The position numbers and the translations under genes were made by a program. Below the pieces are notes generated by a model. It saw nothing but the letters and a program-made list of their open reading frames with translations, did no database searches and was not told where the DNA came from. 64,000 nucleotides of DNA from Candidatus Nomurabacteria bacterium (GTDB taxonomy: Bacteria > Patescibacteriota > Patescibacteriia > HK-STAS-PATE-3), in contig CP060223.1 of NCBI GenBank assembly GCA_023898465.1, positions 576,001 through 640,000 of the forward strand, in the 5' to 3' direction. Below, piece by piece: positions 1-19,678 of this stretch (position 1 is its first letter; each line of letters begins with the position of its first letter).

Positions 1-357
1 TCGCTCATTAATCCAAAGCGAGGAAGTGCCGACTCCGGCTGCAACGAGAATTATCACAATCACCATAACCCAGGTCCCCCAGGATGACTTGGTGATGAGT
101 GATATTCCTAAGAAGACGATAGCCAGAGGCCACAGCTCCCAGAGATTGAAATGCACATCAACCCAACCGGTCGTCTCTGCTAGATAGAGAAACCCAACAA
201 TAACTAAGGTGATGCCAAAAAGTATGCGCCCAGGATTATGACGATGCAAACGCGACTCGCGCTGCTCCGGTTTTACCTCTGGCTTTGGCGGTGGAGGCGG
301 TGGAGCCTCTTTTCCTAAGGTAGGTGTTTCGTGATTTTGAAGCGGTGTCTCTGTCAT
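1..357 (-). CDS. Membrane protein, N-terminal part only (runs off window start). Pro-rich cytoplasmic N-terminus then TM helices. Immediately downstream of PspC-domain gene.
   Basis: Reverse-complement translation starts with ATG at 357..355 (MTETPLQNHETPTLGKEAPPPPPPKPE... then hydrophobic segments ILFGITLVIVGFLYL, WPLAIVFLGISLI). No stop before position 1. Not in ORF track because it is open-ended. Confidence 0.5.
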   Translation of the reverse strand, partial: MTETPLQNHETPTLGKEAPPPPPPKPEVKPEQRESRLHRHNPGRILFGITLVIVGFLYLAETTGWVDVHFNLWELWPLAIVFLGISLITKSSWGTWVMVIVIILVAAGVGTSSLWINER

Positions 358-360
358 AGC

Positions 361-804
361 TTAGCTCCGTTTCATAAGAATAAAAATGCCGAGAAAAATA
401 AACGTCAAAGGCCAAATACTATGCCACTGCAACCAGGTAAAGGAAAAGAGTTGCCGACTCAACAATACTACACCAAACACCACTACAATGACCCCGAGAA
501 AATTTTGCAACTGATTTGCCTGTCCAGCGTTTTGTACCGCATCAACCTTTTCTTGAATTTCGTTTCCCACCTGTTGCGCGCGCTCACTTAGTGTTGTAGC
601 AGCGTGCGTTGCGCCTTCTAGTGGTATAAGCAGCCAAAGCACAACATAAATAAGCACGCCCGCCCCATCAAAGATGGTAAGCAAGAGAAAGACGATACGA
701 AAAATAACTGGGTCAATGCCAAAGTAGTGTCCTAATCCACCGCAGACGCCTGCCAGCATCCGATGAGTCCGTGATCGTACTAATAGTCGCGTTGAATTAG
801 ACAT
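361..804 (-). CDS. PspC-domain (phage shock protein C family) membrane protein
   Basis: N-terminal motif MLAGVCGGLGHYFGIDPVIFRIVFLLL typical of the PspC domain. Several TM helices follow. Confidence 0.7.
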   Translation of the reverse strand: MSNSTRLLVRSRTHRMLAGVCGGLGHYFGIDPVIFRIVFLLLTIFDGAGVLIYVVLWLLIPLEGATHAATTLSERAQQVGNEIQEKVDAVQNAGQANQLQNFLGVIVVVFGVVLLSRQLFSFTWLQWHSIWPLTFIFLGIFILMKRS

Positions 805-1069
805 GAATTTCCTTTGTCTTTATCCTAGCACAGCTCTATGGACTGGCAATAGGGCTAAAATTGGCGCAAAAAATGACTTGACAAAGATTTTAGCAAGTCT
901 TAATGTCTCTATGTTGTCACAAGTACAACAGGCTCCCTGCGGTGCTCCGCGGGTACAATACACAAGAGATCAATCAGATTTGCGAAGTCGCCCTGCGGGG
1001 TGAATTCACCTGCAAAAGCAGGCTCTCTCGTGTGTTGGCCCAACGTGTATTGCGTGGGGGCCTTTTTCT

Positions 1070-1471
1070 TTACTCAAGTTGTGAAGTACAACTTGGACAA
1101 CGAGTTGCCTGTAGAGGAATTTCTGAAATGCAAAAGCGGCAAGACTTCGTGCTTACTTCTACTTCTTTTGGCTTTTGTAATTTGCTTAACAAGCGAATCA
1201 TAAAGAAAATGACTGCCGCAATAATCAAGAAGTCAATAGCCGCTTGAATAAACATCCCGTAAGTCAAATATACTGGCTCAGCTTCTGTACCGCCAATTTT
1301 TACTTGTAGACCAGAAAAATCTATCCCTCCGCTAATCAAACCAATCACCGGCATAATAATATCAGCGACTAAAGAGCTGACAATCTTACCAAAAGCAGCA
1401 CCAATGATGACCGCAACTGCCAGGTCCATCACGTTGCCGCGCATAATGAAGGCCTTAAAATCCTTTAACAT
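1070..1471 (-). CDS. mscL: Large-conductance mechanosensitive channel MscL, with an unusual C-terminal Cys4 ribbon
   Basis: MLKDFKAFIMRGNVMDLAVAVIIGAAFGKIVSSLVADIIMP is near-identical to the canonical MscL N-terminus/TM1. The C-terminus CRFCISEIPLQATRCPSCTSQLE has CxxC-x10-CxxC. Confidence 0.85.
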   Translation of the reverse strand: MLKDFKAFIMRGNVMDLAVAVIIGAAFGKIVSSLVADIIMPVIGLISGGIDFSGLQVKIGGTEAEPVYLTYGMFIQAAIDFLIIAAVIFFMIRLLSKLQKPKEVEVSTKSCRFCISEIPLQATRCPSCTSQLE

Positions 1472-1492
1472 ACTTTTTCACGATTAATAACA

Positions 1493-3181
1493 CTAACCGG
1501 CACTCGACCCGCCACCGCCGCCTCCGCCACCTGCAAATCCCCCGCCGCCAAATCCTGAGCTCGAAGATGGCGAACTGGCAAGGCTAGTTGCGACGCTGCT
1601 GTTCATAACTGAGACAAGGTGGTCAGTAAAACTCACTGCATTAAATGCTGCGAGTGGGTGTGTTGAATGAAACCACTTCGGCGGCTCAGTATAAATATCA
1701 CGGAAGCGATTCGCCCATTGCTTCTCCACATTAAATACCATGGCATAGGGTAAGAAACGCTCAAAGGTTTGCGGAGTCATGGCAGCAACTCTGAATCGCT
1801 CAGCAGTATGTAAGTAAAGCTTAAATCCTTCAGACCATTCCAACGCATGAATACCCTTCTTGGTTTTTTTAGGCATGACTCGACCAAAAATTACCAGCAG
1901 CAGCGCATACACCCAAGGTACGAAAAGGGTGAAAAAACCGATAGGAATCAAGGCTATAGCTACATAATAATATCGACGACGTATACTGTCTGGACGCACC
2001 GGGAAATAACCATACTCATCTGTGGTAACGCTATAAATACTGCTGGTGATTTCCTTCATATCCTTATAAAAGGAATTCTTCAAATCAGAAAGTGCAACTC
2101 GCTCTCCTGTGCTAAAGAGCTTCTCCATTAATAAAAGCTCATAGGGTTTCAAACTCGTATCATGCGCTACACTCTTGAGGCGAACAAAAGTATACTCCTT
2201 TTTCTTAAACAGTCCCCCTTCTTCATCCTCTTCAATGCGTAAATAACCCCGCACTGCTAAATCAATAATTGTGGCAATAAAATCACGTCGATCCGCCTGC
2301 TCATCGATTAAAGTACCGACGACTGCCGGCGGCGCACCATCGGGTGCTTCATATTGCGGGATAATTGTTACCCTACCCTCGGGGTCACGTCCATGCGCTC
2401 GCCAGCGTGAAATAAGCCAAAGAAGTAATACAAGTGGTGAGGCAATATATATCCAACGGAACCAGTCCCAAAAACTTGACCAAAGGCTGGTTTCCTCCTT
2501 GATAGTTTCAAAAGTTACTTCTCCTTTTGGCCAGCCTGCTACAATCGTCATTTCATCTGATGGTCCAACATCAGAGGTAGTAAAGGTTAACGTATCGCCT
2601 TCTTGCGTATAGGTTGTCCGATCTGCCGTACTGCCTCTGGGTCCGACTAATAATCGCTGCTGCGTATCTTCACTGCCATAGGATTTCGGTAGCACGACTT
2701 TAGCGCTGGCATAATGAATGGGTACTCCACGTTGTGCAGAAACTACATTCCAGTAGAGCTCGTCATGGTCAGCAAAATCACCGATTGCATTATGGGCTCG
2801 GTAATGAAAAGTAATGGATTTTTGTGTAATACCGGCATCTGGTGTTTTAGAGAAATACGCTCGAATGCGTACTTCCTTCGAAGTATTTTGTATATCAACA
2901 TCTGAGGAGGCAAATGCTTTACCGTCCTGGTCGTAAACCTCAATCTCGTCATACCAAATGCCTTTTGTTTTTGGTAGCGTCCTGCCTACCCACGTAAAAG
3001 CACCATGAAAATCAATATCCTGCTGCTCATCTACAATAATACTGGAATCCGTTTCAATAGTAATAGTCGAATCCCATGAACGGAACTCCCAAGTCTTGAT
3101 TTGCGCCTGAACCTGTGAGGTCCATAATAGTCCAATAAGGAGAATAGGAATGAAGCGAAATCGATGGAAAATATTTTGCAT
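1493..3181 (-). CDS. DUF2207-like membrane protein (signal peptide, large extracytoplasmic domain, TM helices, Gly-rich C-terminal tail)
   Basis: N-terminal signal-like MQNIFHRFRFIPILLIGLLWTSQVQA. Internal TM segments. C-terminus GFGGGGFAGGGGGGGGSSAG is characteristic of the DUF2207 family. Confidence 0.55.
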   Translation of the reverse strand: MQNIFHRFRFIPILLIGLLWTSQVQAQIKTWEFRSWDSTITIETDSSIIVDEQQDIDFHGAFTWVGRTLPKTKGIWYDEIEVYDQDGKAFASSDVDIQNTSKEVRIRAYFSKTPDAGITQKSITFHYRAHNAIGDFADHDELYWNVVSAQRGVPIHYASAKVVLPKSYGSEDTQQRLLVGPRGSTADRTTYTQEGDTLTFTTSDVGPSDEMTIVAGWPKGEVTFETIKEETSLWSSFWDWFRWIYIASPLVLLLWLISRWRAHGRDPEGRVTIIPQYEAPDGAPPAVVGTLIDEQADRRDFIATIIDLAVRGYLRIEEDEEGGLFKKKEYTFVRLKSVAHDTSLKPYELLLMEKLFSTGERVALSDLKNSFYKDMKEITSSIYSVTTDEYGYFPVRPDSIRRRYYYVAIALIPIGFFTLFVPWVYALLLVIFGRVMPKKTKKGIHALEWSEGFKLYLHTAERFRVAAMTPQTFERFLPYAMVFNVEKQWANRFRDIYTEPPKWFHSTHPLAAFNAVSFTDHLVSVMNSSVATSLASSPSSSSGFGGGGFAGGGGGGGGSSAG

Positions 3182-3190
3182 GGATGGTCT

Positions 3191-3805
3191 TTATATTTCT
3201 TGTCTACGCTTGCGCTGGAGCCAGGATTGAAACTCTTTATCCTGTTTCATTATCTCTTCAATCTCTCCGCGTAAGTAGTCAGCTTTTTTAAGTTTCGTAT
3301 TTTGAGTTTTCCAATCAAGATAGTGATCAATGGTCGGAGTAATGCGCAAAGTAAATTTAATGCGCGGAATCTCTTTCACTTCCCGCTTCCCAACTGTTTT
3401 GAGGAAGTCACCCAATAACCATTGTAATGAGTCATCCGTATAATAACGTATCTGACAAGTTTTTGGAACCTGCTTTTGATTGAGATATTTCAAGATTTGC
3501 CGGCCAGGACTACCGCGCTCTGATAAAAAGATGGTTGGCTTCTTCTGGGCGACTGCATAGGCAAGTAAATATCCAACTTCCGAGTCAGGAGTTGAGCCCT
3601 CAATCACAATTGCATCCATTGCATCAAGCAAGGTGCCACCTTTTGCTTCTATTTCTTGGGCTGAGGCTGGATCTAGGCTTGTTTCTGGGTGAATAGTGTT
3701 TGAGGAAAGTGCAATATCTGCCTCACGCAAAATGCGTCGTATCATGGCGTAGGCCTGTCGCAATCGTTGAGTGGTCGTATCTGGTCCGTAAAAATACACG
3801 TGCAT
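3191..3805 (-). CDS. Hypothetical protein, possibly nucleoside 2-deoxyribosyltransferase-like fold
   Basis: 204 aa ORF tightly packed between neighbours. Weak resemblance only (IVIEGSTPDSEVGYLLAYAVAQKKPTIFL). No strong motif. Confidence 0.3.
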   Translation of the reverse strand: MHVYFYGPDTTTQRLRQAYAMIRRILREADIALSSNTIHPETSLDPASAQEIEAKGGTLLDAMDAIVIEGSTPDSEVGYLLAYAVAQKKPTIFLSERGSPGRQILKYLNQKQVPKTCQIRYYTDDSLQWLLGDFLKTVGKREVKEIPRIKFTLRITPTIDHYLDWKTQNTKLKKADYLRGEIEEIMKQDKEFQSWLQRKRRQEI

Positions 3806-3806
3806 A

Positions 3807-4805
3807 CTAGTGGTGCAGAATTTCCTTTATCTTTTCTTTAAGTAAGCGCTGCACTTGAGTGGTATTTTTTGCTTGAGCAAAAATCCATGAGCTCAACACA
3901 AAAGCACTGTGATATGGCAGGGTGTGGAGAAGTGGTAAAGAGCTCAATCGATCTTGTTGAGCTTCTTGCTGATAAACTATCACAGGAACTTTACTTTTTT
4001 GCAGTTTTTCTAACGCCGAAACATGAGCTGAACTAAGCTGACTAGCTGGATCAAGCTTCACGAGAACTCCCGGTGCTTTCATTACCTCGCCGCTCAATCG
4101 ATCGGTGATTTGCATACCTGGATGCACATCAATCACCACCATGTCTGAGGCAAAGTCAGTGGCAAATTTCACTGCCCGATTACTCTGTTTCCTGATCGGT
4201 GGGAATAGTTTCAAGCCGAAATCAACTTTACCGAGCAAAATTCCGGACAAGGAACGGAAATACTGTGCATCGGGCGGTGCCACTGTAGTCAATTCAATCG
4301 CGCGATGAATTTGATTACCAAAGACCGCACACACATCACCGAAGGAGTATTCAGCTACATGCAGGGCATTCAAGAGATTATCCTTTTGTCCTAAGCCTCG
4401 TGCATGGGCGAACAGCGCCCGTATGTTTGCCGGCACTTTTGGACGCAGCAAATCATGCGGTGAGGCAGTTAATACGACTGGCTTACCTGTGTTTCCCAGT
4501 GCTGCGCCCAGGGCGGGTGCGGTATAGTGCAGCGTTTCTACTTCATGGCTAATCACAAAGCCGTCGAACTTGGTATAGTTGTCGCTAATCACCCGACCGA
4601 TTGACTGCCACAAGGCTGGCGAAACCCCGGACCCTTCGGCGTTTGCCACGTAGGTTGCATCGATTTCTGCCATGATGCTCAACTCTTGCATTTCTCGCAT
4701 CCAAGCAGCCACCTCGCGCTCACTCTGCACCAGGCGCTTTTTGCCTGGACCATACGACAGCGCTGATCCGCTGACGAGAAGTATAAGAATGCGTGCACGT
4801 TGCAT
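3807..4805 (-). CDS. L-asparaginase-family protein, probably a catalytically degenerate paralog
   Basis: YTKFDGFVISHEVETLHYTAPALGAALGNTGKPVVLTAS aligns with the asparaginase core (YDDYDGFVILHGTDTMAYTA...GKPVIVTGS). The N-terminal TGGTI threonine motif is replaced by VSGSAL and HGTDT by SHEVET. Confidence 0.5.
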   Translation of the reverse strand: MQRARILILLVSGSALSYGPGKKRLVQSEREVAAWMREMQELSIMAEIDATYVANAEGSGVSPALWQSIGRVISDNYTKFDGFVISHEVETLHYTAPALGAALGNTGKPVVLTASPHDLLRPKVPANIRALFAHARGLGQKDNLLNALHVAEYSFGDVCAVFGNQIHRAIELTTVAPPDAQYFRSLSGILLGKVDFGLKLFPPIRKQSNRAVKFATDFASDMVVIDVHPGMQITDRLSGEVMKAPGVLVKLDPASQLSSAHVSALEKLQKSKVPVIVYQQEAQQDRLSSLPLLHTLPYHSAFVLSSWIFAQAKNTTQVQRLLKEKIKEILHH

Positions 4806-4897
4806 GAGGTGTGTATTTACGCCGTCGTAACTATTTTAGAGACGGCGCTTTATTATACCCAAAAACTCCCCCTTTGGTCAAAACACTATACTTTACG

Positions 4898-6268
4898 TTA
4901 TGACCTCAGCCACTCTCTCCCCTGTCGTACGAGCAGCTCTTCTGCTTCCTCGGGGTCCTGGAGAAGCTCACGTACCACGCGCTCAAGTCGCACTGATTGC
5001 GAACCCTTCACCAATACGATGTCATGCAGACCTACTACCGAGCGGAGAAAAACCACTGCAGCTTTTGCGTCGGGAAACTCGTGCACTTCCTCCTCAGGAA
5101 AACCTGCTTCACGTGCTGCAGCTGCGATCTTGGCACCCAGCTTGCCAACGGTCACGAGAATATCGGCATGTCCTTTTACCGTCTTTCCAATTTCAGCATG
5201 TGCGTCATCAGTGTATTCCCCCAGCTCAGCCATATCACCTAACACCACAATACGGCGGAAAAAAGTAGCGGATTCAATGGTCTCAGATTTTTTTAATGGT
5301 CCAGTTGTAAGGTGATGTCGCAAATCCTTGGACAAATCACTGATCAACTGAAGTGCCGCAGTCACTGCACGTGGCGAGGCATTATATGAATCATCAATCA
5401 GGAGAGAACGCTTCTGACCTTTGAGTAAACGAGTGCGGCCACGTGGCGGGACGAAATGACGAAAGGCCTCAGCGATGTCGCGCAGATCCATACCATAGGC
5501 AAGTGCCACGCATGTTGCAGCTAGGGCGCTGGAAATAATTGCCTGCCCTACACTTCCTCGCAGCTCCAATGTTGCACTCTTATCCTCAAAATGTACTACG
5601 CAGCGCATGCCCTCGATGCTGGGAAACGCTTCAAATGATTCCTGCTTCCCATACAAGAAACCTACCTCGGTTGCCTGAACGTCAGCTTCTGCGTGAATGC
5701 CATAGCTCAGCACCCGCGACTTGGTCAGTTTATGAAATTCTAAGACTCGCTCATCATCTGCATTGAGAATGGTGTAGCCATCATCTTCTGTGCTTTTTGC
5801 CAGGACCGACTTTTCCTCTGCTACCTTCTCAACTGATCCAAAAAATTCCGTGTGCACTGGAGCAACTGCGGTGACAACACTTACCCGTGGTCGCGCAATG
5901 CTACAGAGATAGCTAATATCGCCCGGATGATCAGCGCCCATTTCTAGTATCAAGACTTCAGGGAAAGGACGACGTTGCAAAAGTAGCTTTGTCGCTTTGA
6001 TAAAAATTCCTAGCCAGGCAAAAGGGTTCCGACCGCCGCTCTTCGCGTCAATAATCGCCAGAGGTAAGCCAAGCTCGTTATTCAAGTTACCCTGACTCCG
6101 TCGCACCGCAAAAGCCCCGCTCATGACAGTGAAAATTGCTTCTTTGGTACTGGTTTTTCCAACGCTGCCCGTAATCGCCACCACATCGGGTTGATACTTA
6201 GCTAGGATTTTCCGTGCATACCAGGCTAGGATGCGCTGCACATACTGCTGGAGCTTTGAGATAGACAT
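4898..6268 (-). CDS. murF: UDP-N-acetylmuramoyl-tripeptide--D-alanyl-D-alanine ligase
   Basis: Mur ligase P-loop VVAITGSVGKTSTKE. Middle and C-terminal Mur ligase domains (LLIDDSYNASP). 456 aa. Confidence 0.9.
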   Translation of the reverse strand: MSISKLQQYVQRILAWYARKILAKYQPDVVAITGSVGKTSTKEAIFTVMSGAFAVRRSQGNLNNELGLPLAIIDAKSGGRNPFAWLGIFIKATKLLLQRRPFPEVLILEMGADHPGDISYLCSIARPRVSVVTAVAPVHTEFFGSVEKVAEEKSVLAKSTEDDGYTILNADDERVLEFHKLTKSRVLSYGIHAEADVQATEVGFLYGKQESFEAFPSIEGMRCVVHFEDKSATLELRGSVGQAIISSALAATCVALAYGMDLRDIAEAFRHFVPPRGRTRLLKGQKRSLLIDDSYNASPRAVTAALQLISDLSKDLRHHLTTGPLKKSETIESATFFRRIVVLGDMAELGEYTDDAHAEIGKTVKGHADILVTVGKLGAKIAAAAREAGFPEEEVHEFPDAKAAVVFLRSVVGLHDIVLVKGSQSVRLERVVRELLQDPEEAEELLVRQGREWLRS

Positions 6269-6310
6269 ATAGAGTAGTATAGCATTATCACCCTAGCGAT
6301 AAATGCACAT

Positions 6311-6339
6311 CTTGACAATTCTCAGGAAAATATATAGTA
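6311..6339 (+). promoter_or_regulatory. Sigma70-like promoter (TTGACA-17-TAGTAT) in long gene-free region
   Basis: cTTGACAattctcaggaaaatataTAGTATacgg read directly. Roughly 80 nt downstream lies a hairpin plus T-tract. Confidence 0.4.
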
Positions 6340-6390
6340 TACGGCCGAAAACCAAAAAAAGAATACGCTCTCTTCTACTCCCCCGGCGGG

Positions 6391-6432
6391 CCTCCAGACT
6401 ACTTCTCTGGAGGCCCCCTTTCTTTATTCTTT
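6391..6432 (+). terminator. Intrinsic terminator-like hairpin GGGCCTCCAGA...TCTGGAGGCCC followed by CTTTCTTTATTCTTT
   Basis: Perfect 11-bp inverted repeat with 8-nt loop followed by a T-rich run. Roughly 80 nt downstream of the promoter-like hexamers at 6311-6339. Confidence 0.45.
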
Positions 6433-6453
6433 ACTAAAAAGACTTTGCATGGT

Positions 6454-6877
6454 TTGACAGTAAAAAAGTGAAAGGTATAAGCTGACAACGGAAACGGCCC
6501 GGACGTGTGGAGATGCTTCAAGATAGGGGTCGTAGTCCATGCCCAAAAATCGCACATTCGCATGGAGGAGGGGTAGAGGGTAATTCAGAAGCCGTCCGGG
6601 CACTTTGCCGGATCGTGAACCCTCCAGTCGGAGCCTCGGAATCGGTGTGCGTGATTGCCGGGGCTTTTTTATTGACAAAAAATTTCCATTTGTTACTATG
6701 GCTGCATCGCACCTTCCCGCTCCTTTTTTCAACTTCCTAGCAGCTGATTCAGCTGCATTCGCGTTCGCTCTACGGACTTCCCCTTTCTCTGTTCTCACTG
6801 CTCCCTCCTGTCTTCCGTGTTCTGGCTTCGCGTCTCGTTCTCCCAGCCAGGTGCAACATTGTACCTGGCTTTCTTTT
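6454..6877 (+). ncRNA. Candidate non-coding RNA region. Promoter TTGACA-16-TATAAG at 6454-6481, a long-range helix (GGCCCGGACG at 6496-6505 pairing CGUCCGGGC at 6592-6600), a 150-nt CU-rich tract, and a terminator hairpin CCAGGTGCAACATTGTACCTGG plus T-run at 6847-6877.
   Basis: No credible ORF across about 600 bp. The 124-aa minus ORF 6424..6798 translates to low-complexity R/A-rich junk. Promoter and terminator hexamers/hairpins read directly. Identity of the RNA is unknown. Confidence 0.3.
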
Positions 6878-7410
6878 TAAAAATCTACAGCAGCCAAATA
6901 TCTCGCTGTATTCACATTTCGTACAGTCATGTACTTATACAGCTTTGACCCAATCACTTTACTCAACTGACTTTTATTCAGGTTCTCTTTTTTTACGTGC
7001 CAGACAATCGCACCTTTTATATAACGCAAGTCCATATACTCTTTTTTCATTGGTAACTCATCAAGAGTTTTCTTATCATCAACTTCAGGGAAAAGGAAAG
7101 CTACATCGGTCTTTTGTGTCTGATGATCGTTCTGCCAAGTCTGAGGAATTGCTGCCACGATTTTCTTCACCTCAGCTTGTGTCTTGATTAACACGGGGAT
7201 AGGAAAGCCAAATTCATTTACTAGGGCTTTTGTCAGCGCTGACTGAATATCCTTACTCTTCCCTTTTGCATTAAAAAGAATGTTGCCAGAATTTATGTAA
7301 GTTGAAACATCCGTGTAACCCAAACTCCCACACAACTCCTTGAGTCGCTTCATTTCTACTTTGTTATTCCCGCCAACATTAATGCCGCGGAGGAGGGCTA
7401 TGTATCTCAT
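6877..7410 (-). CDS. DUF1697-family protein
   Basis: N-terminus MRYIALLRGINVGGNNKVEMKRLKEL matches the DUF1697 signature (YIALLRGINVGG). Confidence 0.6.
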   Translation of the reverse strand: MRYIALLRGINVGGNNKVEMKRLKELCGSLGYTDVSTYINSGNILFNAKGKSKDIQSALTKALVNEFGFPIPVLIKTQAEVKKIVAAIPQTWQNDHQTQKTDVAFLFPEVDDKKTLDELPMKKEYMDLRYIKGAIVWHVKKENLNKSQLSKVIGSKLYKYMTVRNVNTARYLAAVDF

Positions 7411-7973
7411 TGATTGATCACCAAAAACTTCTGCTCAGGAATTTTAAGAATTTCGCACGGCTCTCCAAAACTCTCAAGACCTTCAAGCTTATCTTGTTTG
7501 TCTTCCGACCAATGGACAAACACTTTCACATTTAAGATCCCCAAACCTTGGTGAAATTTCTGACTATCAACATGATAAAAATATCGCGATAACATTTGCG
7601 CCCCAGCGGATGATCCTGCTACTGTTTTTCCCTGCCACAACTCTACCAGCATAGGCACCTTCCGCATATGTTCCAAAAGTACTAATGTCTCACCGCCAAT
7701 AGTATAAATTGCATCAGCGTTCTTAATCTGCTCAATAAAAGTCTGTGTATTCTCGGACGCCATAACAAAGTGTATAGATTTCTCCAGAGCAACTACAGAA
7801 AATCGTTCTTTGGTTAAATCAAAAAATTCTTTCCAGAGGCTTTTATCACGTGCAAAGGGAATAAACAACACAGTAGGCTCGCTCGGTACATCCTTTAAAA
7901 TTTCCTGCACGTAAGCTCGATTATCTACAGTATCATATTTTAGCGCACCACCGTGCAGTATATATTTTGTCAT
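7407..7973 (-). CDS. Peptidase S51 (peptidase E/cyanophycinase-like) family protein
   Basis: 188 aa with the GGETLVLL...GSSAGA pattern (nucleophile Ser in a GxSAG context) typical of S51 dipeptidase E. Confidence 0.5.
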   Translation of the reverse strand: MTKYILHGGALKYDTVDNRAYVQEILKDVPSEPTVLFIPFARDKSLWKEFFDLTKERFSVVALEKSIHFVMASENTQTFIEQIKNADAIYTIGGETLVLLEHMRKVPMLVELWQGKTVAGSSAGAQMLSRYFYHVDSQKFHQGLGILNVKVFVHWSEDKQDKLEGLESFGEPCEILKIPEQKFLVINQ

Positions 7974-7993
7974 ACGTTAAACCTTTTCGACAT

Positions 7994-8512
7994 TTATTTT
8001 CTCCCGACATTCTCATCCATGTCTTTGCCTCCAATAAAAGACAAAACATCAAAATCAGGATCAAGCAACTTTACTAAATCAAGGTCAGGACGATTCATTA
8101 TTTCCACGCCTGGCATTTTTTCACCTCTAGACAACGCCTTTTTTAGTTCTTCAAATTCCTCTTTATCCAAGACAAAATCAACATCGCCCACCTCGGTGTG
8201 CTGATCTGGTTTACGAATATAGAGATAGGTATAGGTGGTCTCCGGAATATCACCTTGGGCAGGAATAACAATGGGCTCATGGAGACGATAATATTTTTGA
8301 TTCCAATTATCAGATTCTTTTGTCAGCTCCTGGCGAACTTTTGTGAGATAGCTATACTCGTCATCGTCATGGCAAAATATTCCGAGATTACCTGCCACTG
8401 GTAAATATCTGCCAAAATTTTTTTTACATAACTCAAAACACTTAAGGTGAGTATATGTTATCGCTTGTATCAATTGCTCTTTGTCTTGGATTGGACTAAA
8501 TCGATACTGCAT
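7994..8512 (-). CDS. Hypothetical protein (172 aa), no recognisable domain
   Basis: ORF with coding-like composition in the ftsI-murF interval. No motif recognised. Confidence 0.4.
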   Translation of the reverse strand: MQYRFSPIQDKEQLIQAITYTHLKCFELCKKNFGRYLPVAGNLGIFCHDDDEYSYLTKVRQELTKESDNWNQKYYRLHEPIVIPAQGDIPETTYTYLYIRKPDQHTEVGDVDFVLDKEEFEELKKALSRGEKMPGVEIMNRPDLDLVKLLDPDFDVLSFIGGKDMDENVGRK

Positions 8513-8578
8513 GATTTCTGCTATAGAACTTCCTTTACAATACGCAGCTGAAGATGGCCATCTTCAGCTGCGGTTGAG

Positions 8579-10336
8579 TTACTCCCCAACTACACTCGGC
8601 GGAACTTCGAAGTAATTCAAGAGGAACTTCGCAATATCGCCGAATAAAGGCGCAGCAGTGCTCTCGGCAAATTTCACGTCCTTAGGATCCACAATCTTGG
8701 TCACCATGACAAACTTCGGGTCCTCGACCGGACCGAAACCGGCGAAGGAGCCAATGGTGCGATTAGGATCATAGCCCGGACCGTCAGTGCGTGGAATCTG
8801 CGCCGTACCTGTTTTACCGGCAATGTAATATCCTGGCACAGCCGCTCTCGTACCGTGACCATTCTTCACTACATTTACGAGCATGGCTGATACTGTGGTT
8901 GAGGTTTTTGGATCCAACACTTGTCGTACAGCTGTGGGGTGAGTTTTCACATGGAAGTCATTTGGCTTCACAATTTCATCAACGATGTATGGTTTATACA
9001 AAGTTCCCCCATTTGCAATAGCTGCATAGGCCGCGGCCAGCTGCAAAGGCGTGGCGGTGATACCTTGACCAAAAGAAGCGGTGTCAACGTAAATGTCACG
9101 TCCGCTGGCCAGCTCTCCGAGATTACCAGCCGACTCATTACCAAGCTCAACACCAGTCTGCTCACCAAAACCAAAGCGCTTCACATAGTCATAAAAAACG
9201 TCGTTCCCGGCCTGTTGCGCAGCAAAAATTGCTCCGGTGTTTAGAGATTTTTCCAACACCTCGGTCATTGTTTGCGTACCGTATGTTTTATCGTCGGAAT
9301 TCCGAATCGTGAAGCCGCCAACCTCTACACTTCCTTCATCAACATAAGTGGTTTCCGGTGTAACCTTGCCAGTATCAACCGCGGTCGCCATGGTAATGGG
9401 CTTGAAAATCGATCCAGGCTCATAAGGACTAATGGCCGGATTAAGAAAAACATCCAAGTCAGTCACCTCGTTGTAATGATTCGGATCAAAGTCAGGATAA
9501 CCGCACATGGCCAATATGGCACCGCTATCTGGATCAAGTATAACCACCGCCCCACTCTCAGCCCCGTGCTTCAGTACGGCTTCTTGAAGCTTCGTGCACA
9601 CAGTGTATTCCAGGGTACGGTCAATGGTAAGGATGAGATCATCACCATCTTTAGCATCTTGGATAAATCGATCGCCGACGGTAATCCAACGACCGGCCGC
9701 GTCGCGCTCAGCTTGCAAATAACCCTGTTGACCAGCCAGCTCTTCATCAAAATAACCTTCCAGTCCATACTGTCCTTTTTTCACATCCTCTGACATGCCA
9801 AGGAAACCAAGGATTTGGCTGGCCAGACTTCCCTCTGGATAAAGGCGTCCCTTTTCACTAATGAAAGAGATGCCATCAATCTCTAATGCCTCAATTTTTT
9901 CTTTGGTAGCAACGCTTATATTATGCTCAATCGGTTCATAGACATCGTCGCTTTTTGATAATCGAGCAAGTAATGTTTCTTTATCAAGCGTGATGAAACT
10001 TTCAAGCTTTTCGGTCACATCCTCCGGATCTTCAATTCGCTTTGGCACAGCATATACTAGGAAGCGTTCCTCATTGGTAGCCAGTGGAAAAAGCTGCCCA
10101 TCTGAATAGCGATCGTGCGCGTAAATTTCTCCACGATCTGGTAAAAGCCGTTGCTCAATTTCGTGCTGACCAGAGGCCAGCGCTTCGTAGAACCCGTGCG
10201 CTAAAACCTGCAGCGTGAATAGACGAACTACTAAAATACTCGAAAAGCCAAATAACAAAATAAGCAGCACGGTGAGACGATCAAGTCGCCATCTTGGCTG
10301 CTGTTGTCGTGGTCGATTGCGTCCGTACCGCGTCAT
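8579..10336 (-). CDS. ftsI: Penicillin-binding protein 2/FtsI-like class B transpeptidase
   Basis: N-terminal TM anchor. Transpeptidase motifs SIFKP (SxxK), SLN and KTG(T). 585 aa. Located downstream of ftsL. Confidence 0.85.
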   Translation of the reverse strand: MTRYGRNRPRQQQPRWRLDRLTVLLILLFGFSSILVVRLFTLQVLAHGFYEALASGQHEIEQRLLPDRGEIYAHDRYSDGQLFPLATNEERFLVYAVPKRIEDPEDVTEKLESFITLDKETLLARLSKSDDVYEPIEHNISVATKEKIEALEIDGISFISEKGRLYPEGSLASQILGFLGMSEDVKKGQYGLEGYFDEELAGQQGYLQAERDAAGRWITVGDRFIQDAKDGDDLILTIDRTLEYTVCTKLQEAVLKHGAESGAVVILDPDSGAILAMCGYPDFDPNHYNEVTDLDVFLNPAISPYEPGSIFKPITMATAVDTGKVTPETTYVDEGSVEVGGFTIRNSDDKTYGTQTMTEVLEKSLNTGAIFAAQQAGNDVFYDYVKRFGFGEQTGVELGNESAGNLGELASGRDIYVDTASFGQGITATPLQLAAAYAAIANGGTLYKPYIVDEIVKPNDFHVKTHPTAVRQVLDPKTSTTVSAMLVNVVKNGHGTRAAVPGYYIAGKTGTAQIPRTDGPGYDPNRTIGSFAGFGPVEDPKFVMVTKIVDPKDVKFAESTAAPLFGDIAKFLLNYFEVPPSVVGE

Positions 10337-10348
10337 AGCACCTAGGCT

Positions 10349-10708
10349 TTAACGACGGGCAAAGGCGGAATCGGTCGGACTAAGATATTCAATATGCGCC
10401 ACTTCGGTTAAGCCGAGCTGGCCACTTGCTTCCTGGACTGCACTCAGAGATTGCAGCTCAGTCGCCTCTACTTCCAGGCGACGATTTTCTTTACGCAACT
10501 CATCTACTCGATTTTCCAGCGTCTTGATTTCGAAACCAGTTGTCGCCACATTGTTAATCAACGCTAAATAGGCTCCCCCACCAATCACTGCGAGCGTCAC
10601 CGTTAACACGGTAATTGCAGTGAGGCGCAGCTTCAATGTACGAAGCAGCGTACCTGCTAAGCGTTGAGAAATGGTGCTTTGTTGAGTTGTGCGATCGTAA
10701 TAGGTCAT
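10349..10708 (-). CDS. ftsL: Cell division protein FtsL-like (small bitopic coiled-coil protein)
   Basis: 119 aa, single TM (LTAITVLTVTLAVIGGGAYLALI) followed by coiled coil (RVDELRKENRRLEVEATELQ). Position between rsmH and ftsI. Confidence 0.65.
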   Translation of the reverse strand: MTYYDRTTQQSTISQRLAGTLLRTLKLRLTAITVLTVTLAVIGGGAYLALINNVATTGFEIKTLENRVDELRKENRRLEVEATELQSLSAVQEASGQLGLTEVAHIEYLSPTDSAFARR

Positions 10709-11658
10709 TGGATTTTTTCTGCTACTCGGAGTTTAGCGCTCCTGGAACGTGAATTGTGCGCAATCTCATCCTGACCCGGCACGACTGGTTTCTTGGTCAG
10801 CACCTGCAATGAAGCATGGTGATTGCACGTGCAGACCGGTTGTTGGGCAGGACAGATGCAGTCTGTTGATTCGCGCCGGAAGAAACGCTTCACGATCCTA
10901 TCCTCTAGCGAGTGATAACTGAGGACCGCGATGCGACCGCCGGGTTGAAGCAAGTGAACTACTTCTGGTAAAACGCGCGCGAGGACGTCGAGCTCGTCAT
11001 TGACTTTAATGCGAAGCGCTTGGAAGACTTGCGTCGCAGGGTGAATGCGCGATCGCCCTCGCTTGGGTTTTACCTTATCTATACAGGCGACAAGTTGTGG
11101 AATGTGCGTGAAGGGATTTTTTTGACGCTCGGTAACGATTGCTCGAGCAATGCGACCAGCTGCTGACTCTTCCCCGTACTCTTTGAATATTTTTTTTAGC
11201 TCTTGCTCAGATGCGGTATTGAGGATATCGGCAGCCGTTGCTTGTGCGCTGGTCGGATCAAAGCGGAAATCGAGAGGCGCGGAACTTAGAAAGGAAAATC
11301 TTGATGCGAGAGCTTCGATTGCCAGTGAAGAGAGACCAAGGTCCAATAGAACACCGCGTAGTTGAATATCTGGGAATTGTTCATGGATGCGCTGTGCTGC
11401 GTGAACAAAATTATCATGCAGGAGATGAGTGCGCTGGCTATACTTCTGTAAACGCGCCTTGGCTATATCCAGTGTGACTGGATCCGCCTCTACTCCAATG
11501 AGTATTCCCTTTGGAGCTGTGCGCTCAAGCATTGCTTCAGCGTGCCCTCCCCCACCTAGAGTCAGATCAAGCACCGTATCGCCTGAACCTAGGTTGAGGA
11601 GCGCTAATGTTTCGTTGAGAAGAACAGGAATGTGTCCGCGGCCGGATTGGGCAGGCAT
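10705..11658 (-). CDS. rsmH: 16S rRNA (cytosine1402-N4)-methyltransferase RsmH (MraW)
   Basis: HIPVLLNETL, DLTLGGGGHAEAML SAM-binding motif. Start set at the internal Met (MPAQSGRGHIPVLL) so it abuts the mraZ stop. The annotated longer ORF would overlap mraZ by about 85 nt. Confidence 0.85.
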   Translation of the reverse strand: MPAQSGRGHIPVLLNETLALLNLGSGDTVLDLTLGGGGHAEAMLERTAPKGILIGVEADPVTLDIAKARLQKYSQRTHLLHDNFVHAAQRIHEQFPDIQLRGVLLDLGLSSLAIEALASRFSFLSSAPLDFRFDPTSAQATAADILNTASEQELKKIFKEYGEESAAGRIARAIVTERQKNPFTHIPQLVACIDKVKPKRGRSRIHPATQVFQALRIKVNDELDVLARVLPEVVHLLQPGGRIAVLSYHSLEDRIVKRFFRRESTDCICPAQQPVCTCNHHASLQVLTKKPVVPGQDEIAHNSRSRSAKLRVAEKIQ

Positions 11659-11659
11659 C

Positions 11660-12103
11660 TTAGACACCGATTTCACCAAGCGCCTCGGCAATATCACCGC
11701 TGGACTTCTCGGTTTTGGTCTTATAAGCGGCCCAAGCAGTTTCATCCCAGAGTTCCAGGCGGTTGTACAAGCCAGCTACCACTACCTTCTTCTTCATAGT
11801 GGCGTACTTGCGCAAGTAATCAGGCAACATGATGCGCCCCTGCTTATCAATCTCCACATCCATGGCCCCAGCCAGCATTAAGCGTGAAAAAGCGCGGGTG
11901 TTTGCTTGAGCAATTGGCAAATTCGCTAACTTGTCAGCTAACTTCTCCCACTCTTGTTGTGGATACAAGAAAAGACAGTTGTCCAAGCCTCGGGTGACGA
12001 CTGCCCCTTTGCTGAGTGCTTCACGGAATTTTCGAGGTACTGCGAGGCGACCTTTTTCATCAATCGCGTGGTAGTACTCTCCGATAAACATGCTGGTGGT
12101 CAT
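11660..12103 (-). CDS. mraZ: Transcriptional regulator MraZ
   Basis: Tandem MraZ repeats. N-terminus MFIGEYYHAIDEKGRLAVPRKFRE (DxxGR motif). First gene of the dcw cluster. Confidence 0.85.
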   Translation of the reverse strand: MTTSMFIGEYYHAIDEKGRLAVPRKFREALSKGAVVTRGLDNCLFLYPQQEWEKLADKLANLPIAQANTRAFSRLMLAGAMDVEIDKQGRIMLPDYLRKYATMKKKVVVAGLYNRLELWDETAWAAYKTKTEKSSGDIAEALGEIGV

Positions 12104-12119
12104 TTCTGGCTTTTTTCGT

Positions 12120-12303
12120 TATCCACATTAGGGAAGGGTTATCCCCACATTTATCCACTTCTCACCCTTCTTTAACCATTTTACCCCACTTCCTGGTTTT
12201 CGTCAACCACTTTAAAAACCACAAGAATTAGGCGTATTGGTCAAGAAAATGGTGAAATAGCACAATTTCAAGAAATAACGTTACACTTAGGCACTTCCCC
12301 ACT
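12120..12303 (-). promoter_or_regulatory. mraZ leader with GTGG(G) direct repeats (putative MraZ boxes), also matching the DnaA-box consensus TTATCCACA, plus a TTGACG-17-TAAAAT promoter
   Basis: Plus-strand TTATCCACA at 12120-12128, TTATCCCCACA at 12140-12150, TTATCCACT at 12152-12160, CCCCACT at 12184-12190 and 12297-12303. On the mraZ strand these read (A/T)GTGG(G)GATAA. The promoter (reverse complement) is gtggTTGACGaaaaccaggaagtggggTAAAAT. Confidence 0.45.
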
Positions 12304-12421
12304 TCGACCTCAGGAAGATGTACGTCAAAAATGACAAACTTGACCTTTTGCTGAGCCTTTGTAAACTGCCGACACTAAGGAATTCTTTGCACTTTCACAA
12401 TCTACTAGGAGGAGAGCGACA

Positions 12422-14323: not shown

Positions 14324-14341
14324 ACATCGCACCTTAACCTG

Positions 14342-14383
14342 GCCCGCTTCGAGTAAAATCGAGAAGCGGGCTTTACTTTTTTA
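14342..14383 (+). terminator. Intrinsic terminator after glmS
   Basis: GCCCGCTTCGAGTAAAATCGAGAAGCGGGC hairpin followed by TTTACTTTTTTAT. Confidence 0.7.
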
Positions 14384-14484
14384 TAAAGCAGACGTAGTTT
14401 TTACATAGACATCCATGCTTGAAGGTATATTTTAGTGTTAATAATTTTGCTTACTAGCGCCTCACTTAGACCATTGCCACGTGT

Positions 14485-15651: not shown

Positions 15652-15675
15652 AGACGTTTATAAATATTCAACTCT

Positions 15676-15939: not shown

Positions 15940-15955
15940 TAAGTTCACTAAGGAT

Positions 15956-17053: not shown

Positions 17054-17186
17054 TAGCAAAATTCGTTAGCACCTCCCCTTTCGCTGCTTTTTCATAACTC
17101 CGCGAAGTAGCACCTTCACGGAAGTTTACCCACATCCTGAACGCGGTAGCTCAGGAAGTTGTTAGCAATGTACCGCTTTACACATT

Positions 17187-19632: not shown

Positions 19633-19678
19633 TGAAAAAAAAGAAAAAGCCTCAGTGCAAACGCATGAGGCTTGGTAA
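19633..19678 (-). terminator. Intrinsic terminator (minus strand). Hairpin AGCCTCATGCGTTTGCACTGAGGCT followed by TTTTTCTTTTTTTT.
   Basis: Plus strand shows aaaaaaaagaaaaagcctcagtgcaaacgcatgaggct. Read on the minus strand the U-tract follows the 8-bp stem. Confidence 0.6.

What the first reader, a model, noticed from the sequence alone, without database searches (positions are those of the whole stretch)
6269..6876. 600-bp gene-free insertion in the dcw cluster with promoter/terminator pairs and a 150-nt CU-rich tract
Between murF and the DUF1697 gene, plus-strand signals are read directly. First, TTGACA-17-TAGTAT at 6311-6339, followed about 50 nt later by a perfect 11-bp hairpin plus T-run at 6391-6432, which would give an 80-nt sRNA. 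Second, TTGACA-16-TATAAG at 6454-6481. This is followed by a segment with a 9-bp long-range helix (6496-6505 with 6592-6600) and a GC hairpin plus U6 at 6655-6672. Third, an almost purine-free CU-rich stretch (6700-6845) ending in a hairpin plus T-run at 6847-6877. The only long ORF (minus, 124 aa) is low-complexity. In such a tightly packed genome this much non-coding sequence with paired signals suggests one or more ncRNAs. A GGA-rich antisense CsrB-like decoy is conceivable on the minus strand.
Basis: seen in the sequence. Interest (0 to 1): 0.55.

Follow-up and report, generated by a model that had tools for sequence, protein, structure and literature searches.

The report
Three tandem orphan small-RNA genes beside murF
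A 608-base gap next to the cell-wall gene murF in a tiny-genome (Patescibacteria/CPR) bacterium most likely holds three back-to-back small non-coding RNA genes that match no known RNA or protein family; relatives carry different RNAs at the same spot, and what they do is unknown.

Summary
Window 6269-6876 lies between murF (4898-6268, -) and a DUF1697 gene (6877-7410, -). It carries three consecutive promoter-to-terminator units on the + strand:
- U1, about 6347-6432, roughly 85 nt.
- U2, about 6488-6672, roughly 185 nt, G-rich.
- U3, about 6706-6878, roughly 175 nt, C/U-rich.

No other such triple exists in the window.

Nothing known matches the region. Rfam, Pfam, a search of 1.84 billion representative proteins, six-frame comparison with relatives, and phage, plasmid and viral collections all gave nothing. 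It is therefore not a recognisable pseudogene.

The genome is a Patescibacteria MAG. Its nearest relatives (PBP 68-70%, MurF 50-52% identity) also keep one or two opposite-strand promoter/terminator RNA units directly upstream of murF. Those RNAs are not detectably homologous to the window's. More distant CPR genomes have a median gap of 13 bp there.

My verdict is lineage-specific, fast-evolving sRNA genes. The mechanism is only inferred: pairing through CU-rich single strands, or cis-antisense action. The CsrB-like minus-strand idea is not supported. This is a new member of a known kind, of moderate interest.

The parts
4898..6268 (-). murF (UDP-MurNAc-tripeptide--D-Ala-D-Ala ligase); flanking gene, transcribed divergently from U1
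   Evidence: Pfam Mur_ligase_M and Mur_ligase_C. The identical protein is named MurF in NCBI.
6276..6284 (-). putative extended -10 promoter of murF (TGcTATACT), 7 nt before the ATG; implies a leaderless or very short-leader murF mRNA
   Evidence: Read from the sequence. There is no -35 match, so the scan does not list it. This is inference.
6312..6340 (+). P1 promoter, TTGACA-17-TAGTAT, back to back with the murF promoter
   Evidence: 10 of 12 matches.
6347..6432 (+). U1, predicted sRNA of about 85 nt: A-rich 5' end, CU-rich single strand (CGCUCUCUUCUACUCCCCC), then the terminator
   Evidence: Fold z = -4.7. The transcription start is inferred from the -10 position.
6388..6426 (+). T1 intrinsic terminator (perfect 11-bp stem with 8 GC pairs, then a T-rich tail)
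6454..6481 (+). P2 promoter, TTGACA-16-TATAAG; weaker because the -10 lacks the final T (alternative: spacer 18 with TAAGCT)
   Evidence: Not listed by the scan.
6488..6672 (+). U2, predicted RNA of about 185 nt, G-rich (33% G, 57% GC against 46% for the genome), contains GGAGGAGGGG; several alternative helices
6630..6672 (+). T2 intrinsic terminator (interrupted stem of about 15 bp, then U6); its T-run abuts the -35 box of P3
6672..6699 (+).
   Evidence: 10 of 12 matches, TG present.
6706..6878 (+). U3, predicted RNA of about 175 nt. A 140-nt C/U-rich, mostly unpaired body carries CUUCC x4, CUCC x4 and UCCC x4, plus one internal hairpin at 6740-6756.
6845..6878 (+). T3 intrinsic terminator (11-12 bp stem, then TTCTTTTT), ending at the stop codon of the convergent DUF1697 gene
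6877..7410 (-). DUF1697 gene; flanking, convergent with U3; absent from all relatives' loci

Best explanation
The gap holds three independent, tandem small non-coding RNA genes on the strand opposite the surrounding dcw-region genes. Each would be transcribed from its own sigma-70-type promoter and ended by its own intrinsic terminator: U1 about 85 nt, U2 about 185 nt, U3 about 175 nt. They are lineage-specific (orphan) RNAs. They sit in a slot directly upstream of murF that, in this family of Patescibacteria, habitually holds fast-evolving RNA genes transcribed divergently from murF.

The most likely mode of action is inferred, not shown. U1 and U3 would act in trans through long, unpaired C/U-rich stretches that pair with purine-rich mRNA segments. 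In this genome Shine-Dalgarno sites are rare, so that would mean the few strong ones, for example glmS. This is the mode used by C-rich sRNAs of the LhrC, RsaE/RoxS and 6C kind. U2 would be a G-rich structured RNA, either a protein-binding RNA or a partner or sponge.

Shown here: the signals, their rarity, the absence of coding and homology, and the positional analogues. Inferred: transcription itself, RNA ends, trans-acting pairing and targets.
For: **Signals.**
- There are three promoter-to-terminator units.
- They are the only such cluster on either strand of 64 kb.
- TTGACA is about 26-fold enriched in the gap.
- T1 and T3 are the best terminator hairpins in 20 kb.
- P1 and P3 match the consensus as well as or better than the promoter in front of tRNA-Pro (TTGACC-17-TAGGAT).
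- All terminators have T-runs only on the + strand (sequence).

**Not coding.**
- Pfam gave nothing for the 124-aa (-) and 91-aa (+) ORFs.
- The 124-aa ORF had 0 hits among 1.84 billion representative proteins.
- The 91-aa ORF had 0 hits.
- Six-frame comparison with 1.3 Mb of relatives' murF neighbourhoods found nothing.

**Clade context.**
- L162, L002 and L167 (PBP 68-70%, MurF 50-52% identity) each have 1-2 opposite-strand promoter-plus-terminator units. L164/L165/L166 (MurF 50-52%) have one: a TTGACA box, which the promoter scan does not list, and a terminator hairpin followed by U6.
- These units are 180-290 nt long, and in each genome the first -35 box lies 43-115 nt from the murF ATG.
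- In 145 CPR loci the median gap upstream of murF is 13 bp.
- Within one sub-clade the RNA region is as conserved (79% DNA identity) as MurF protein (80%).

**CU-rich single strands.** U3 is 74% pyrimidine and predicted mostly unpaired. The 5' part of U1 pairs best with the glmS SD among 62 start regions (-20 kcal/mol).
Against: - There are no expression data.
- No sequence or structural conservation of U1-U3 themselves could be shown, because no genome closer than 56% MurF identity exists in the collections searched.
- The RNAs at this position in relatives are not homologous to U1-U3. The positional analogy could therefore be independent gain or a property of the locus.
- P2 lacks the conserved -7 T.
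- U2 is no more stable than shuffles.
- The U1-glmS pairing is explained by composition: 11-15% of shuffled U1 do as well.
- U2 duplexes with U1 or U3 are not better than shuffles.
- Only 9 of 62 genes here have an SD-like motif, which limits a general anti-SD mechanism.
- The CU-rich character is not shared by the relatives' RNAs (pyrimidine 0.51-0.54).
Confidence: 0.55

Rival explanations
1. The units act in cis, not through their RNA products. Three strong promoters fire against the direction of the dcw and accessory operon. Together with + strand-only terminators, they form an antisense or transcriptional-interference buffer that uncouples murF from read-through out of the upstream genes. 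Their divergent transcription might also stimulate the adjacent -35-less murF promoter through local supercoiling. The RNA sequences would then be free to drift.
For: - There is no minus-strand terminator with a T-run between DUF1697 and murF, so read-through is possible. Any such transcript would be fully complementary to U1-U3.
- P1 lies back to back with a putative extended -10 murF promoter.
- In every relative the first RNA promoter lies 43-115 nt from the murF ATG, while the RNA sequences are unrelated. That pattern is expected if position rather than sequence is selected.
Against: - L164 and L165 conserve the RNA body about as well as the MurF protein, which argues for selection on the RNA sequence.
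- Three separate units with strong terminators are more than interference would need.
- GC content and predicted structure of the relatives' units are well above background.
Confidence: 0.2
2. The minus strand of 6700-6845 is a GGA-rich CsrB/RsmZ-like decoy that sequesters a CsrA-type protein.
For: There are 8 GGA motifs in 146 nt on the minus strand, in the top 0.12% of windows.
Against: - No promoter or terminator is found on the minus strand.
- The + strand has a complete extended -10 promoter and a terminator framing exactly this tract.
- The GGA motifs are not displayed in repeated hairpin loops.
- No Csr/Rsm Rfam family is matched even at E <= 10.
- No CsrA is found in the window, although that covers only about 6% of the genome.
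Confidence: 0.04
3. The gap is debris. It would be a decayed gene or the remnant of a small mobile or foreign element, and its promoter- and terminator-like signals would be fortuitous or relics.
For: - The PBP-murF slot is variable. The window alone has three accessory genes there.
- U2 is bracketed by a 16-nt imperfect inverted repeat, 6453-6468 and 6664-6679.
- GC of U2 and U3 (52-57%) exceeds the genome's 46%.
Against: - No protein homology was found in any frame.
- No similarity was found to phage, plasmid or viral collections.
- There is no repeat elsewhere in the window.
- Three intact, correctly ordered promoter/terminator pairs are improbable as relics in a genome with about 90% coding density.
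- The inverted repeat is mostly an A-run and a T-run plus the near-palindromic TTGACAA.
Confidence: 0.1
4. U2 is a highly diverged housekeeping RNA, for example a 6S-like RNA polymerase-binding RNA, that current models cannot recognise in CPR bacteria.
For: - Its size (about 185 nt) fits, it has its own promoter and terminator, and its GC is above background.
- Relatives have 180-290-nt GC-rich RNAs at the same place.
- I know of no such RNA described for CPR bacteria.
Against: - No Rfam 6S, SRP, RNase P or tmRNA match was found at E <= 10, nor in relatives.
- The predicted fold is four separate hairpins, not a rod with a central bubble, and it is no more stable than shuffles.
- A housekeeping RNA would be expected to stay alignable among genomes whose PBP is 70% identical. 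It does not.
Confidence: 0.05
5. The CU tract encodes a small Ser/Pro/Ala/Phe-rich protein: the + strand ORF 6605-6880, or its internal ATG at 6698 giving 60 aa.
For: An open frame exists. This genome rarely uses SD sequences, so the lack of an SD is not an argument against it.
Against: - The ATG at 6698 overlaps the -10 box of P3 and lies upstream of the predicted start at 6706.
- No homologue was found.
- The ORF runs through the T3 hairpin.
- The composition is what translating any CU-rich sequence would give.
Confidence: 0.03

Closest known systems
LhrC family sRNAs of Listeria monocytogenes (multicopy, tandemly encoded, envelope-stress induced; PMC4132741)
   Same: Both are several small RNA genes in tandem in one intergenic region, each with its own promoter and intrinsic terminator. 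Both have C/U-rich (UCCC-type) unpaired motifs suited to pairing with purine-rich ribosome-binding regions, and both have a genomic or functional link to the cell envelope.
   Different: LhrC copies are homologous siblings of about 110 nt. U1, U2 and U3 are unrelated to each other apart from a 27-nt stretch at 74% identity, and U2 is G-rich. There is no Rfam match. No regulator is known. The genome is SD-poor. No target is shown.
C-rich base-pairing sRNAs: RsaE/RoxS (Firmicutes), 6C (Actinobacteria; PMC6486639), IsrR
   Same: Both are stand-alone sRNAs whose C-rich single-stranded motifs would bind G-rich SD regions without needing a dedicated adjacent protein.
   Different: In those RNAs the C-rich motifs sit in defined hairpin loops and the families are conserved across genera. 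U3 is a 140-nt, largely unstructured CU tract with no conservation in relatives and no family match.
CsrB/RsmZ protein-sequestering RNAs
   Same: The complement of U3 has a high density of GGA.
   Different: The strand is wrong for the transcription signals. There are no repeated GGA hairpin loops, no family match and no CsrA in the window.
GlmY/GlmZ (sRNA control of glmS in Enterobacteria) and the glmS ribozyme
   Same: The regulatory logic could be the same if U1 pairs with the glmS SD: an sRNA encoded next to a cell-wall gene would control amino-sugar supply. glmS here has no ribozyme match and a short leader.
   Different: There is no homology. The predicted pairing would repress rather than activate. 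It is not better than composition-matched shuffles.
6S RNA
   Same: U2 has a similar size and is an independent gene.
   Different: U2 has no rod-with-central-bubble fold and no Rfam match.

Membership tests
Stand-alone bacterial sRNA gene (generic class) | Own promoter and own intrinsic terminator in an intergenic region, on one strand | tested here: met
   P1/T1, P2/T2 and P3/T3 are all on the + strand. P2 is weaker because its -10 lacks the final T.
Stand-alone bacterial sRNA gene (generic class) | No protein-coding capacity or homology | tested here: met
   Pfam gave none. There were 0 hits in 1.84 billion representative proteins, 0 hits for the + ORF, and no tblastx hit.
Stand-alone bacterial sRNA gene (generic class) | A discrete transcript is actually made | not testable with these tools
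   No transcriptome data are available here.
Stand-alone bacterial sRNA gene (generic class) | Conservation of sequence or structure in related genomes | tested here: inconclusive
   No homologue was found in 167 loci. However, the nearest genome has only 50-56% MurF identity. Only positional analogues are seen.
C-rich/UCCC-motif base-pairing sRNAs (LhrC, RsaE/RoxS, 6C) | C-rich motifs in unpaired regions | tested here: met
   U3 has CUUCC x4, CUCC x4 and UCCC x4 in predicted unpaired stretches. U1 has CUCUCUUCUACUCCCCC unpaired.
C-rich/UCCC-motif base-pairing sRNAs (LhrC, RsaE/RoxS, 6C) | Sequence or structure match to the family model | tested here: not met
   No Rfam hit at gathering thresholds or at E <= 10.
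C-rich/UCCC-motif base-pairing sRNAs (LhrC, RsaE/RoxS, 6C) | Specific complementarity to target ribosome-binding sites | tested here: inconclusive
   The best U1 partner is the glmS SD at -20 kcal/mol, but 11-15% of shuffled U1 reach that value. Only 62 genes of the genome were available.
CsrB/RsmZ decoy RNAs | Many GGA / A(N)GGA motifs | tested here: met
   The minus strand of 6700-6845 has 8 GGA and 3 ANGGA, in the top 0.12% of windows.
CsrB/RsmZ decoy RNAs | GGA motifs presented in loops of repeated hairpins | tested here: not met
   The minus-strand fold shows no repeated GGA-loop hairpins.
CsrB/RsmZ decoy RNAs | Promoter and terminator on the GGA-rich strand | tested here: not met
   No minus-strand promoter or terminator was found in 5800-7500.
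CsrB/RsmZ decoy RNAs | CsrA/RsmA encoded in the genome | tested here: inconclusive
   tblastn with CsrA against the 64-kb window found nothing. The rest of the 1.08-Mb genome was not available.
6S RNA | Rod-like fold of about 180 nt with a central bubble, and a match to RF00013 | tested here: not met
   U2 folds into four separate hairpins with z = -0.31. There is no Rfam match.
Riboswitch / cis leader | A downstream gene on the same strand under its control | tested here: not met
   No + strand gene follows. T3 abuts the stop codon of the convergent DUF1697 gene. No riboswitch family is matched.
Pseudogene | Detectable protein homology in some frame | tested here: not met

The most novel reading that the evidence does not exclude
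In one family of Patescibacteria, the slot immediately upstream of murF would be a dedicated, rapidly turning-over 'sRNA cradle' coupled divergently to the murF promoter. Its RNAs would regulate cell-envelope precursor supply. In this SD-poor genome they would do so by pairing their CU-rich strands with the small set of mRNAs that still carry a strong Shine-Dalgarno sequence, glmS among them. These would be among the first regulatory sRNAs, and the first sRNA regulon logic, defined for the Candidate Phyla Radiation.
Probability: 0.1. Interest if true: 0.7.

Novelty: new member of a known kind. Interest (0 to 1): 0.4.

Why it matters
Regulatory RNAs of the Candidate Phyla Radiation are essentially uncharted. 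A 2022 transcriptome paper on the best-studied member, TM7x, states that it has 'no currently validated small RNAs' (bioRxiv 10.1101/2022.03.25.485537).

This window offers a clean candidate. It has three textbook promoter/terminator units packed into 608 bp of a genome with almost no spare DNA. They sit next to a peptidoglycan gene, and related genomes carry positional counterparts. If the units are transcribed, they would give concrete, testable sRNA candidates for an ultra-small, host-dependent bacterium.

They would also give an example of a locus where sRNA genes are replaced rapidly while their position is kept. If they are not transcribed, the region is simply unusual spacer DNA.

Tried and rejected
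**Known RNA families.** Rfam at gathering thresholds over the whole window found only 5 tRNAs. Rfam at E <= 10 on the gap and on the relatives' gaps gave only noise.

**Close relatives for covariation analysis.**
- MurF-anchored scans of GTDB species genomes and JGI metagenomes, and a search of 5.8 billion proteins, found nothing closer than 56% MurF identity.
- The 56% relative has no retrievable DNA.

**Sequence homology of U1-U3.**
- blastn, nhmmer and Smith-Waterman against shuffles, run on the relatives' RNA units and 167 loci, gave nothing.
- The MAFFT alignment is unconvincing, at 41% column identity.

**Covariance model.** A model of the L164/L165 RNA searched against the window and relatives matched only itself.

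**Pseudogene test.** Pfam, exhaustive HMMER, a word-indexed search and tblastx were all negative.

**Mobile or foreign origin.** Phage and plasmid blastn and exact 21-mer scans of viral contigs were all negative. No repeat of the gap exists elsewhere in the window.

**RNA-RNA partnership inside the island.** U2-U3, U2-U1 and U1-U3 duplex energies equal those of shuffles.

**Target prediction.** glmS is the top U1 partner, but I rejected this as evidence after the shuffle control.

**CsrA, Hfq and KhpA in the window.** None found.

**Failed script.** My first dinucleotide-shuffle script hung and was replaced by mononucleotide shuffles.
Full report
**1. What is in the sequence**

The window comes from a Patescibacteria (CPR) metagenome-assembled genome. 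The MurF protein encoded at 4898-6268 (-) is identical to an NCBI entry from a 'Candidatus Nomurabacteria' MAG with a 1.08-Mb contig.

The finding lies in a run of minus-strand genes:

| Coordinates | Gene |
|---|---|
| 11660-12103 | mraZ |
| 10705-11745 | rsmH |
| 10349-10708 | 119-aa FtsL-sized ORF |
| 8579-10336 | PBP/FtsI |
| 7994-8512 | 172-aa ORF without a Pfam hit |
| 7407-7973 | S51 peptidase |
| 6877-7410 | DUF1697 |
| 6269-6876 | the 608-bp gap |
| 4898-6268 | murF |
| 3807-4805 | asparaginase-like gene |

Most genes in the window are separated by fewer than 60 bp, so a 608-bp gap is unusual.

**2. The signals**

The consensus scan finds the following on the + strand:
- P1 (TTGACA-17-TAGTAT, 6312-6340).
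- T1 (perfect 11-bp hairpin, 6388-6416, with a T-rich tail).
- T2 (6642-6661). Folding extends it to an interrupted stem of about 15 bp at 6630-6667, followed by U6.
- P3 (TTGACA-16-TACTAT preceded by TG, 6672-6699).
- T3 (6845-6870, followed by TTCTTTTT).

P2 (TTGACA-16-TATAAG, 6454-6481) is present. It lacks the conserved last T of the -10 box, so it is the weakest element.

With it, the CU-rich tract becomes a third self-contained unit rather than a tail of the second. Placing starts 7 nt after each -10 box gives U1 at about 6347-6432, U2 at about 6488-6672 and U3 at about 6706-6878.

None of the three hairpins is followed by a T-run on the minus strand, and no minus-strand promoter was found in 5800-7500.

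**3. Is this more than chance?**

- TTGACA occurs 12 times on the + strand of the 64-kb window, and three of these are in the gap. About 0.1 would be expected, and my Poisson estimate is about 1e-4.
- T1 and T3 rank first and second among terminator-like hairpins in window 1-20000. Only a handful of stems of 10 bp or more exist in 60 kb.
- A scan of both strands for strong promoters (at least 10 of 12 matches, -35 at least 5 of 6) followed within 30-320 nt by a stable hairpin and T-run gives six pairs in all. Three of them are these.
- P1 and P3 match the consensus at least as well as the promoter in front of tRNA-Pro (TTGACC-17-TAGGAT). The organism therefore appears to use this promoter type.
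- The CU tract (6700-6845) is 74% pyrimidine (A 9%, G 17%, C 38%, T 36%). It is not 'almost purine-free', but it is the window maximum, 4.2 sd above the mean.

**4. What it is not**

- **No known RNA family.** Rfam finds only five tRNAs in the window and nothing credible in the gap at E <= 10 on either strand.
- **No protein.**
  - The 124-aa minus ORF and the 91-aa plus ORF have no Pfam hit.
  - The 124-aa ORF has zero hits among 1.84 billion representative proteins.
  - The 91-aa ORF has none in the 5.8-billion-protein search.
  - tblastx against 1.3 Mb of murF neighbourhoods from relatives is empty.
- **Not a leader.** The ATG at 6698 overlaps the -10 box of P3 and lies upstream of the predicted start, and no + strand gene follows.
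- **No foreign match.** Phage, plasmid and viral collections contain nothing similar, and the gap is not repeated elsewhere in the window.

**5. Comparative context**

No close relative exists in the collections. MurF-anchored scans of GTDB species genomes and JGI metagenomes gave at best 49-50% identity. The 5.8-billion-protein search gave 56% at best, and that contig has no retrievable DNA.

The nearest genomes with DNA are L162, L163, L164, L165/L166, L167 and L002, with MurF 50-52% identical. In the three whose upstream flank is available the PBP is 68-70% identical (L162, L002), or its last 21 residues match (L167). They share the synteny mraZ-rsmH-ftsL-PBP-[variable]-murF-[variable]-asparaginase-DUF2207.

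All of these genomes except L163 have RNA-like units on the strand opposite murF in the space directly upstream of it:
- **L162:** TTGACA-17-TATTAT, then a stable hairpin with a T-rich tail about 190 nt later.
- **L002:** TTGACA-17-TAGACT, then a terminator about 255 nt later, in a 555-bp gap between PBP and murF.
- **L165/L166/L164:** a unit of about 240 nt ending in a long hairpin and U6. It has a TTGACA box 43 nt from the murF ATG, but no clear -10, so the scan lists no promoter.
- **L167:** two consecutive units of about 210 and 270 nt, with promoters TTGACC-17-TACTAT and TTGACG-17-TAAGAT, in a gene-free kilobase between PBP and murF.

In each genome the first -35 box is 43-115 nt from the murF ATG.

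Across 145 CPR loci the median distance from murF to the upstream gene is 13 bp, and only four loci show a gap of at least 300 bp. A large RNA-bearing gap is therefore a property of this clade, not of CPR in general.

DUF1697, the S51 peptidase and the 172-aa ORF occur in none of the relatives' loci. The window-specific event is their insertion between the PBP gene and the RNA island, not the gap itself.

**6. Are the RNAs homologous?**

- Not detectably. Local alignment against shuffles, blastn, nhmmer and a multiple alignment show nothing beyond terminator T-runs.
- A covariance model built from L164 and L165 finds only its own sources.
- L164 and L165 themselves are 79% identical over the promoter and RNA, and nearly identical over the first ~110 alignment columns (promoter plus 5' end of the RNA). 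Their MurF proteins are 80% identical. Within that sub-clade the RNA therefore looks constrained.
- The CU-rich character is unique to the window (pyrimidine 0.72 for U3 and 0.62 for U1, against 0.51-0.54 in relatives).
- Overall, position and orientation are kept while sequence turns over. This fits fast-evolving sRNA genes. It equally fits selection on the act of divergent transcription.

**7. Anatomy of the three RNAs**

- **U1** has an A-rich 5' end, then an unpaired CGCUCUCUUCUACUCCCCC, then T1. Its fold z-score is -4.7, mostly owing to the terminator.
- **U2** is G-rich (33% G; 57% GC against 46% for the genome) and contains GGAGGAGGGG.
  - The minimum-free-energy fold is no better than shuffles (z = -0.31).
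  - It therefore shows no sign of a rod-like 6S fold.
- **U3** has one internal perfect hairpin (6740-6756) and T3. Between them lies a largely unpaired C/U tract carrying CUUCC x4, CUCC x4 and UCCC x4.

**8. Mechanism: what could be tested**

*Partnership inside the island.* The G-rich U2 could in principle pair with the CU-rich U1 or U3. Duplex energies equal those of shuffles.

*Trans targets.*
- Among 62 start regions in the window, the best partner of U1's CU stretch is the SD of the gene at 12422-14323, at -20 kcal/mol and 3 sd below the mean.
- That gene is glmS: a glutamine amidotransferase domain and two SIS-domain stretches. This would fit the cell-wall context.
- However, 11-15% of composition-preserving shuffles of U1 do as well. 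The signal reflects CU-richness meeting one of the few strong SDs.
- Only 9 of 62 genes have an SD-like motif. A general anti-SD role is therefore unlikely, but a selective one on SD-bearing mRNAs remains possible.

*Cis action.*
- murF has a TGcTATACT extended -10 element 7 nt before its ATG (sequence). This suggests its own promoter and a leaderless or near-leaderless mRNA, back to back with P1.
- The minus strand has no T-run terminator between DUF1697 and murF. Any read-through RNA would therefore be fully complementary to U1-U3.

*CsrB idea.*
- The minus strand carries 8 GGA in 146 nt, in the top 0.12% of windows.
- That strand has no signals, and there are no GGA-loop hairpins.
- There is no family match and no CsrA in the window.

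**9. Verdict**

The most economical reading is three tandem, independently transcribed, orphan small RNA genes. I give about 0.55 to the whole statement, including trans-acting pairing. I would give about 0.75-0.8 to the narrower claim that at least two discrete + strand RNAs are made.

The main rival is a cis-acting antisense or interference role for the same transcription units (about 0.2). Debris, a minus-strand CsrB-like decoy, a diverged 6S RNA and a small protein are each unlikely.

In kind, this is ordinary bacterial sRNA architecture. The nearest functional analogues are tandem, C/U-rich sRNAs such as LhrC (PMC4132741) and C-rich sRNAs such as 6C (PMC6486639). It belongs to none of those families.

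It is worth recording because CPR regulatory RNAs are essentially unknown, and because the locus shows positional persistence with sequence turnover. Without expression data or closer genomes, function cannot be established.

Noticed in passing
window 19281-20640 (minus strand): This is a second gene-poor stretch, GC-rich at 56% against 46% for the genome, between a UvrD-like helicase and LexA. On the minus strand it carries, in order:
- a promoter TTGACA-17-TAGTGT (-35 at 20572);
- a strong terminator at about 19853-19805;
- a promoter TTGACC-17-TAGGAT (19802-19774), a unit of about 130 nt, and a terminator with a T10 run at about 19665-19630;
- a 38-aa ORF with a strong SD (ATG at 19571; contains CPxxDC), followed by a terminator at 19349-19326.

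The two long ORFs there have no Pfam hit, and Rfam finds nothing.
   Followed up: partly
window, all 62 long ORFs: The genome hardly uses Shine-Dalgarno sequences. Only 9 of 62 predicted starts have a GGAG, GAGG, AGGA or GGGG motif in the 18 nt (-20 to -3) upstream of the start codon. Start calls are from longest ORFs, so some may be wrong.
   Followed up: partly
window 12104-12421 and 12422-14323 (+): glmS (glutamine amidotransferase domain and two SIS-domain stretches) is divergent from mraZ. It has a short leader with one of the strongest SDs in the window (AGGAGGAGAG) and no glmS ribozyme match. It is the best predicted duplex partner of U1, but not beyond composition.
   Followed up: yes
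window 6268-6289 (minus strand): murF is preceded by GATAATGCTATACTACTCTAT-ATG. This contains an extended -10 element (TGcTATACT) 7 nt from the start codon and no SD, suggesting a leaderless or near-leaderless murF mRNA. L164 and L165 keep TATACT upstream of murF as well.
   Followed up: partly
window 6877-8512: DUF1697, the S51 peptidase and a 172-aa ORF without a Pfam hit sit between PBP/FtsI and the RNA island. They have no counterpart in any of 167 related loci. They look like a window-specific insertion into the dcw region.
   Followed up: partly
window 6453-6468 and 6664-6679: A 16-nt imperfect inverted repeat (88%) brackets U2 (TTTGACAGTAAAAAAG / CTTTTTTATTGACAAA). It consists of an A-run and a T-run plus the near-palindromic TTGACAA, so it is probably fortuitous.
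   Followed up: no
L163 560-740 (strand opposite murF): The 214-bp gap upstream of murF in this relative has no promoter/terminator unit. Instead it has two tandem copies of a module of about 55 nt, each with a GGCGCAATCT[A/G]AAGA[A/G]TGCGCC hairpin and CCGCGCTTACGA, followed by a third hairpin (GACGCAAGCTTCAGCTTGCGTC). There is no Rfam match.
   Followed up: no
L162 3551-4720 (strand opposite murF): In this relative the RNA unit is followed on the same strand by a second TTGACA box, an SD and a 310-aa ORF without a Pfam hit. The RNA there could therefore be a leader rather than a free-standing sRNA.
   Followed up: no
L002, L013 and other loci: Many records whose MurF neighbourhood is clearly Patescibacteria-like are titled 'uncultured Gammaproteobacteria bacterium' (binchicken MAGs). 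The record titles are unreliable for taxonomy.
   Followed up: no
window 30555-30786 (+): Upstream of the 790-aa gene at 30709 lies a strong promoter-like site (TTGACA-18-TATAAA). About 195 nt later there is a hairpin and T-run that falls just inside the ORF. This could be an attenuator or a mis-called start.
   Followed up: no
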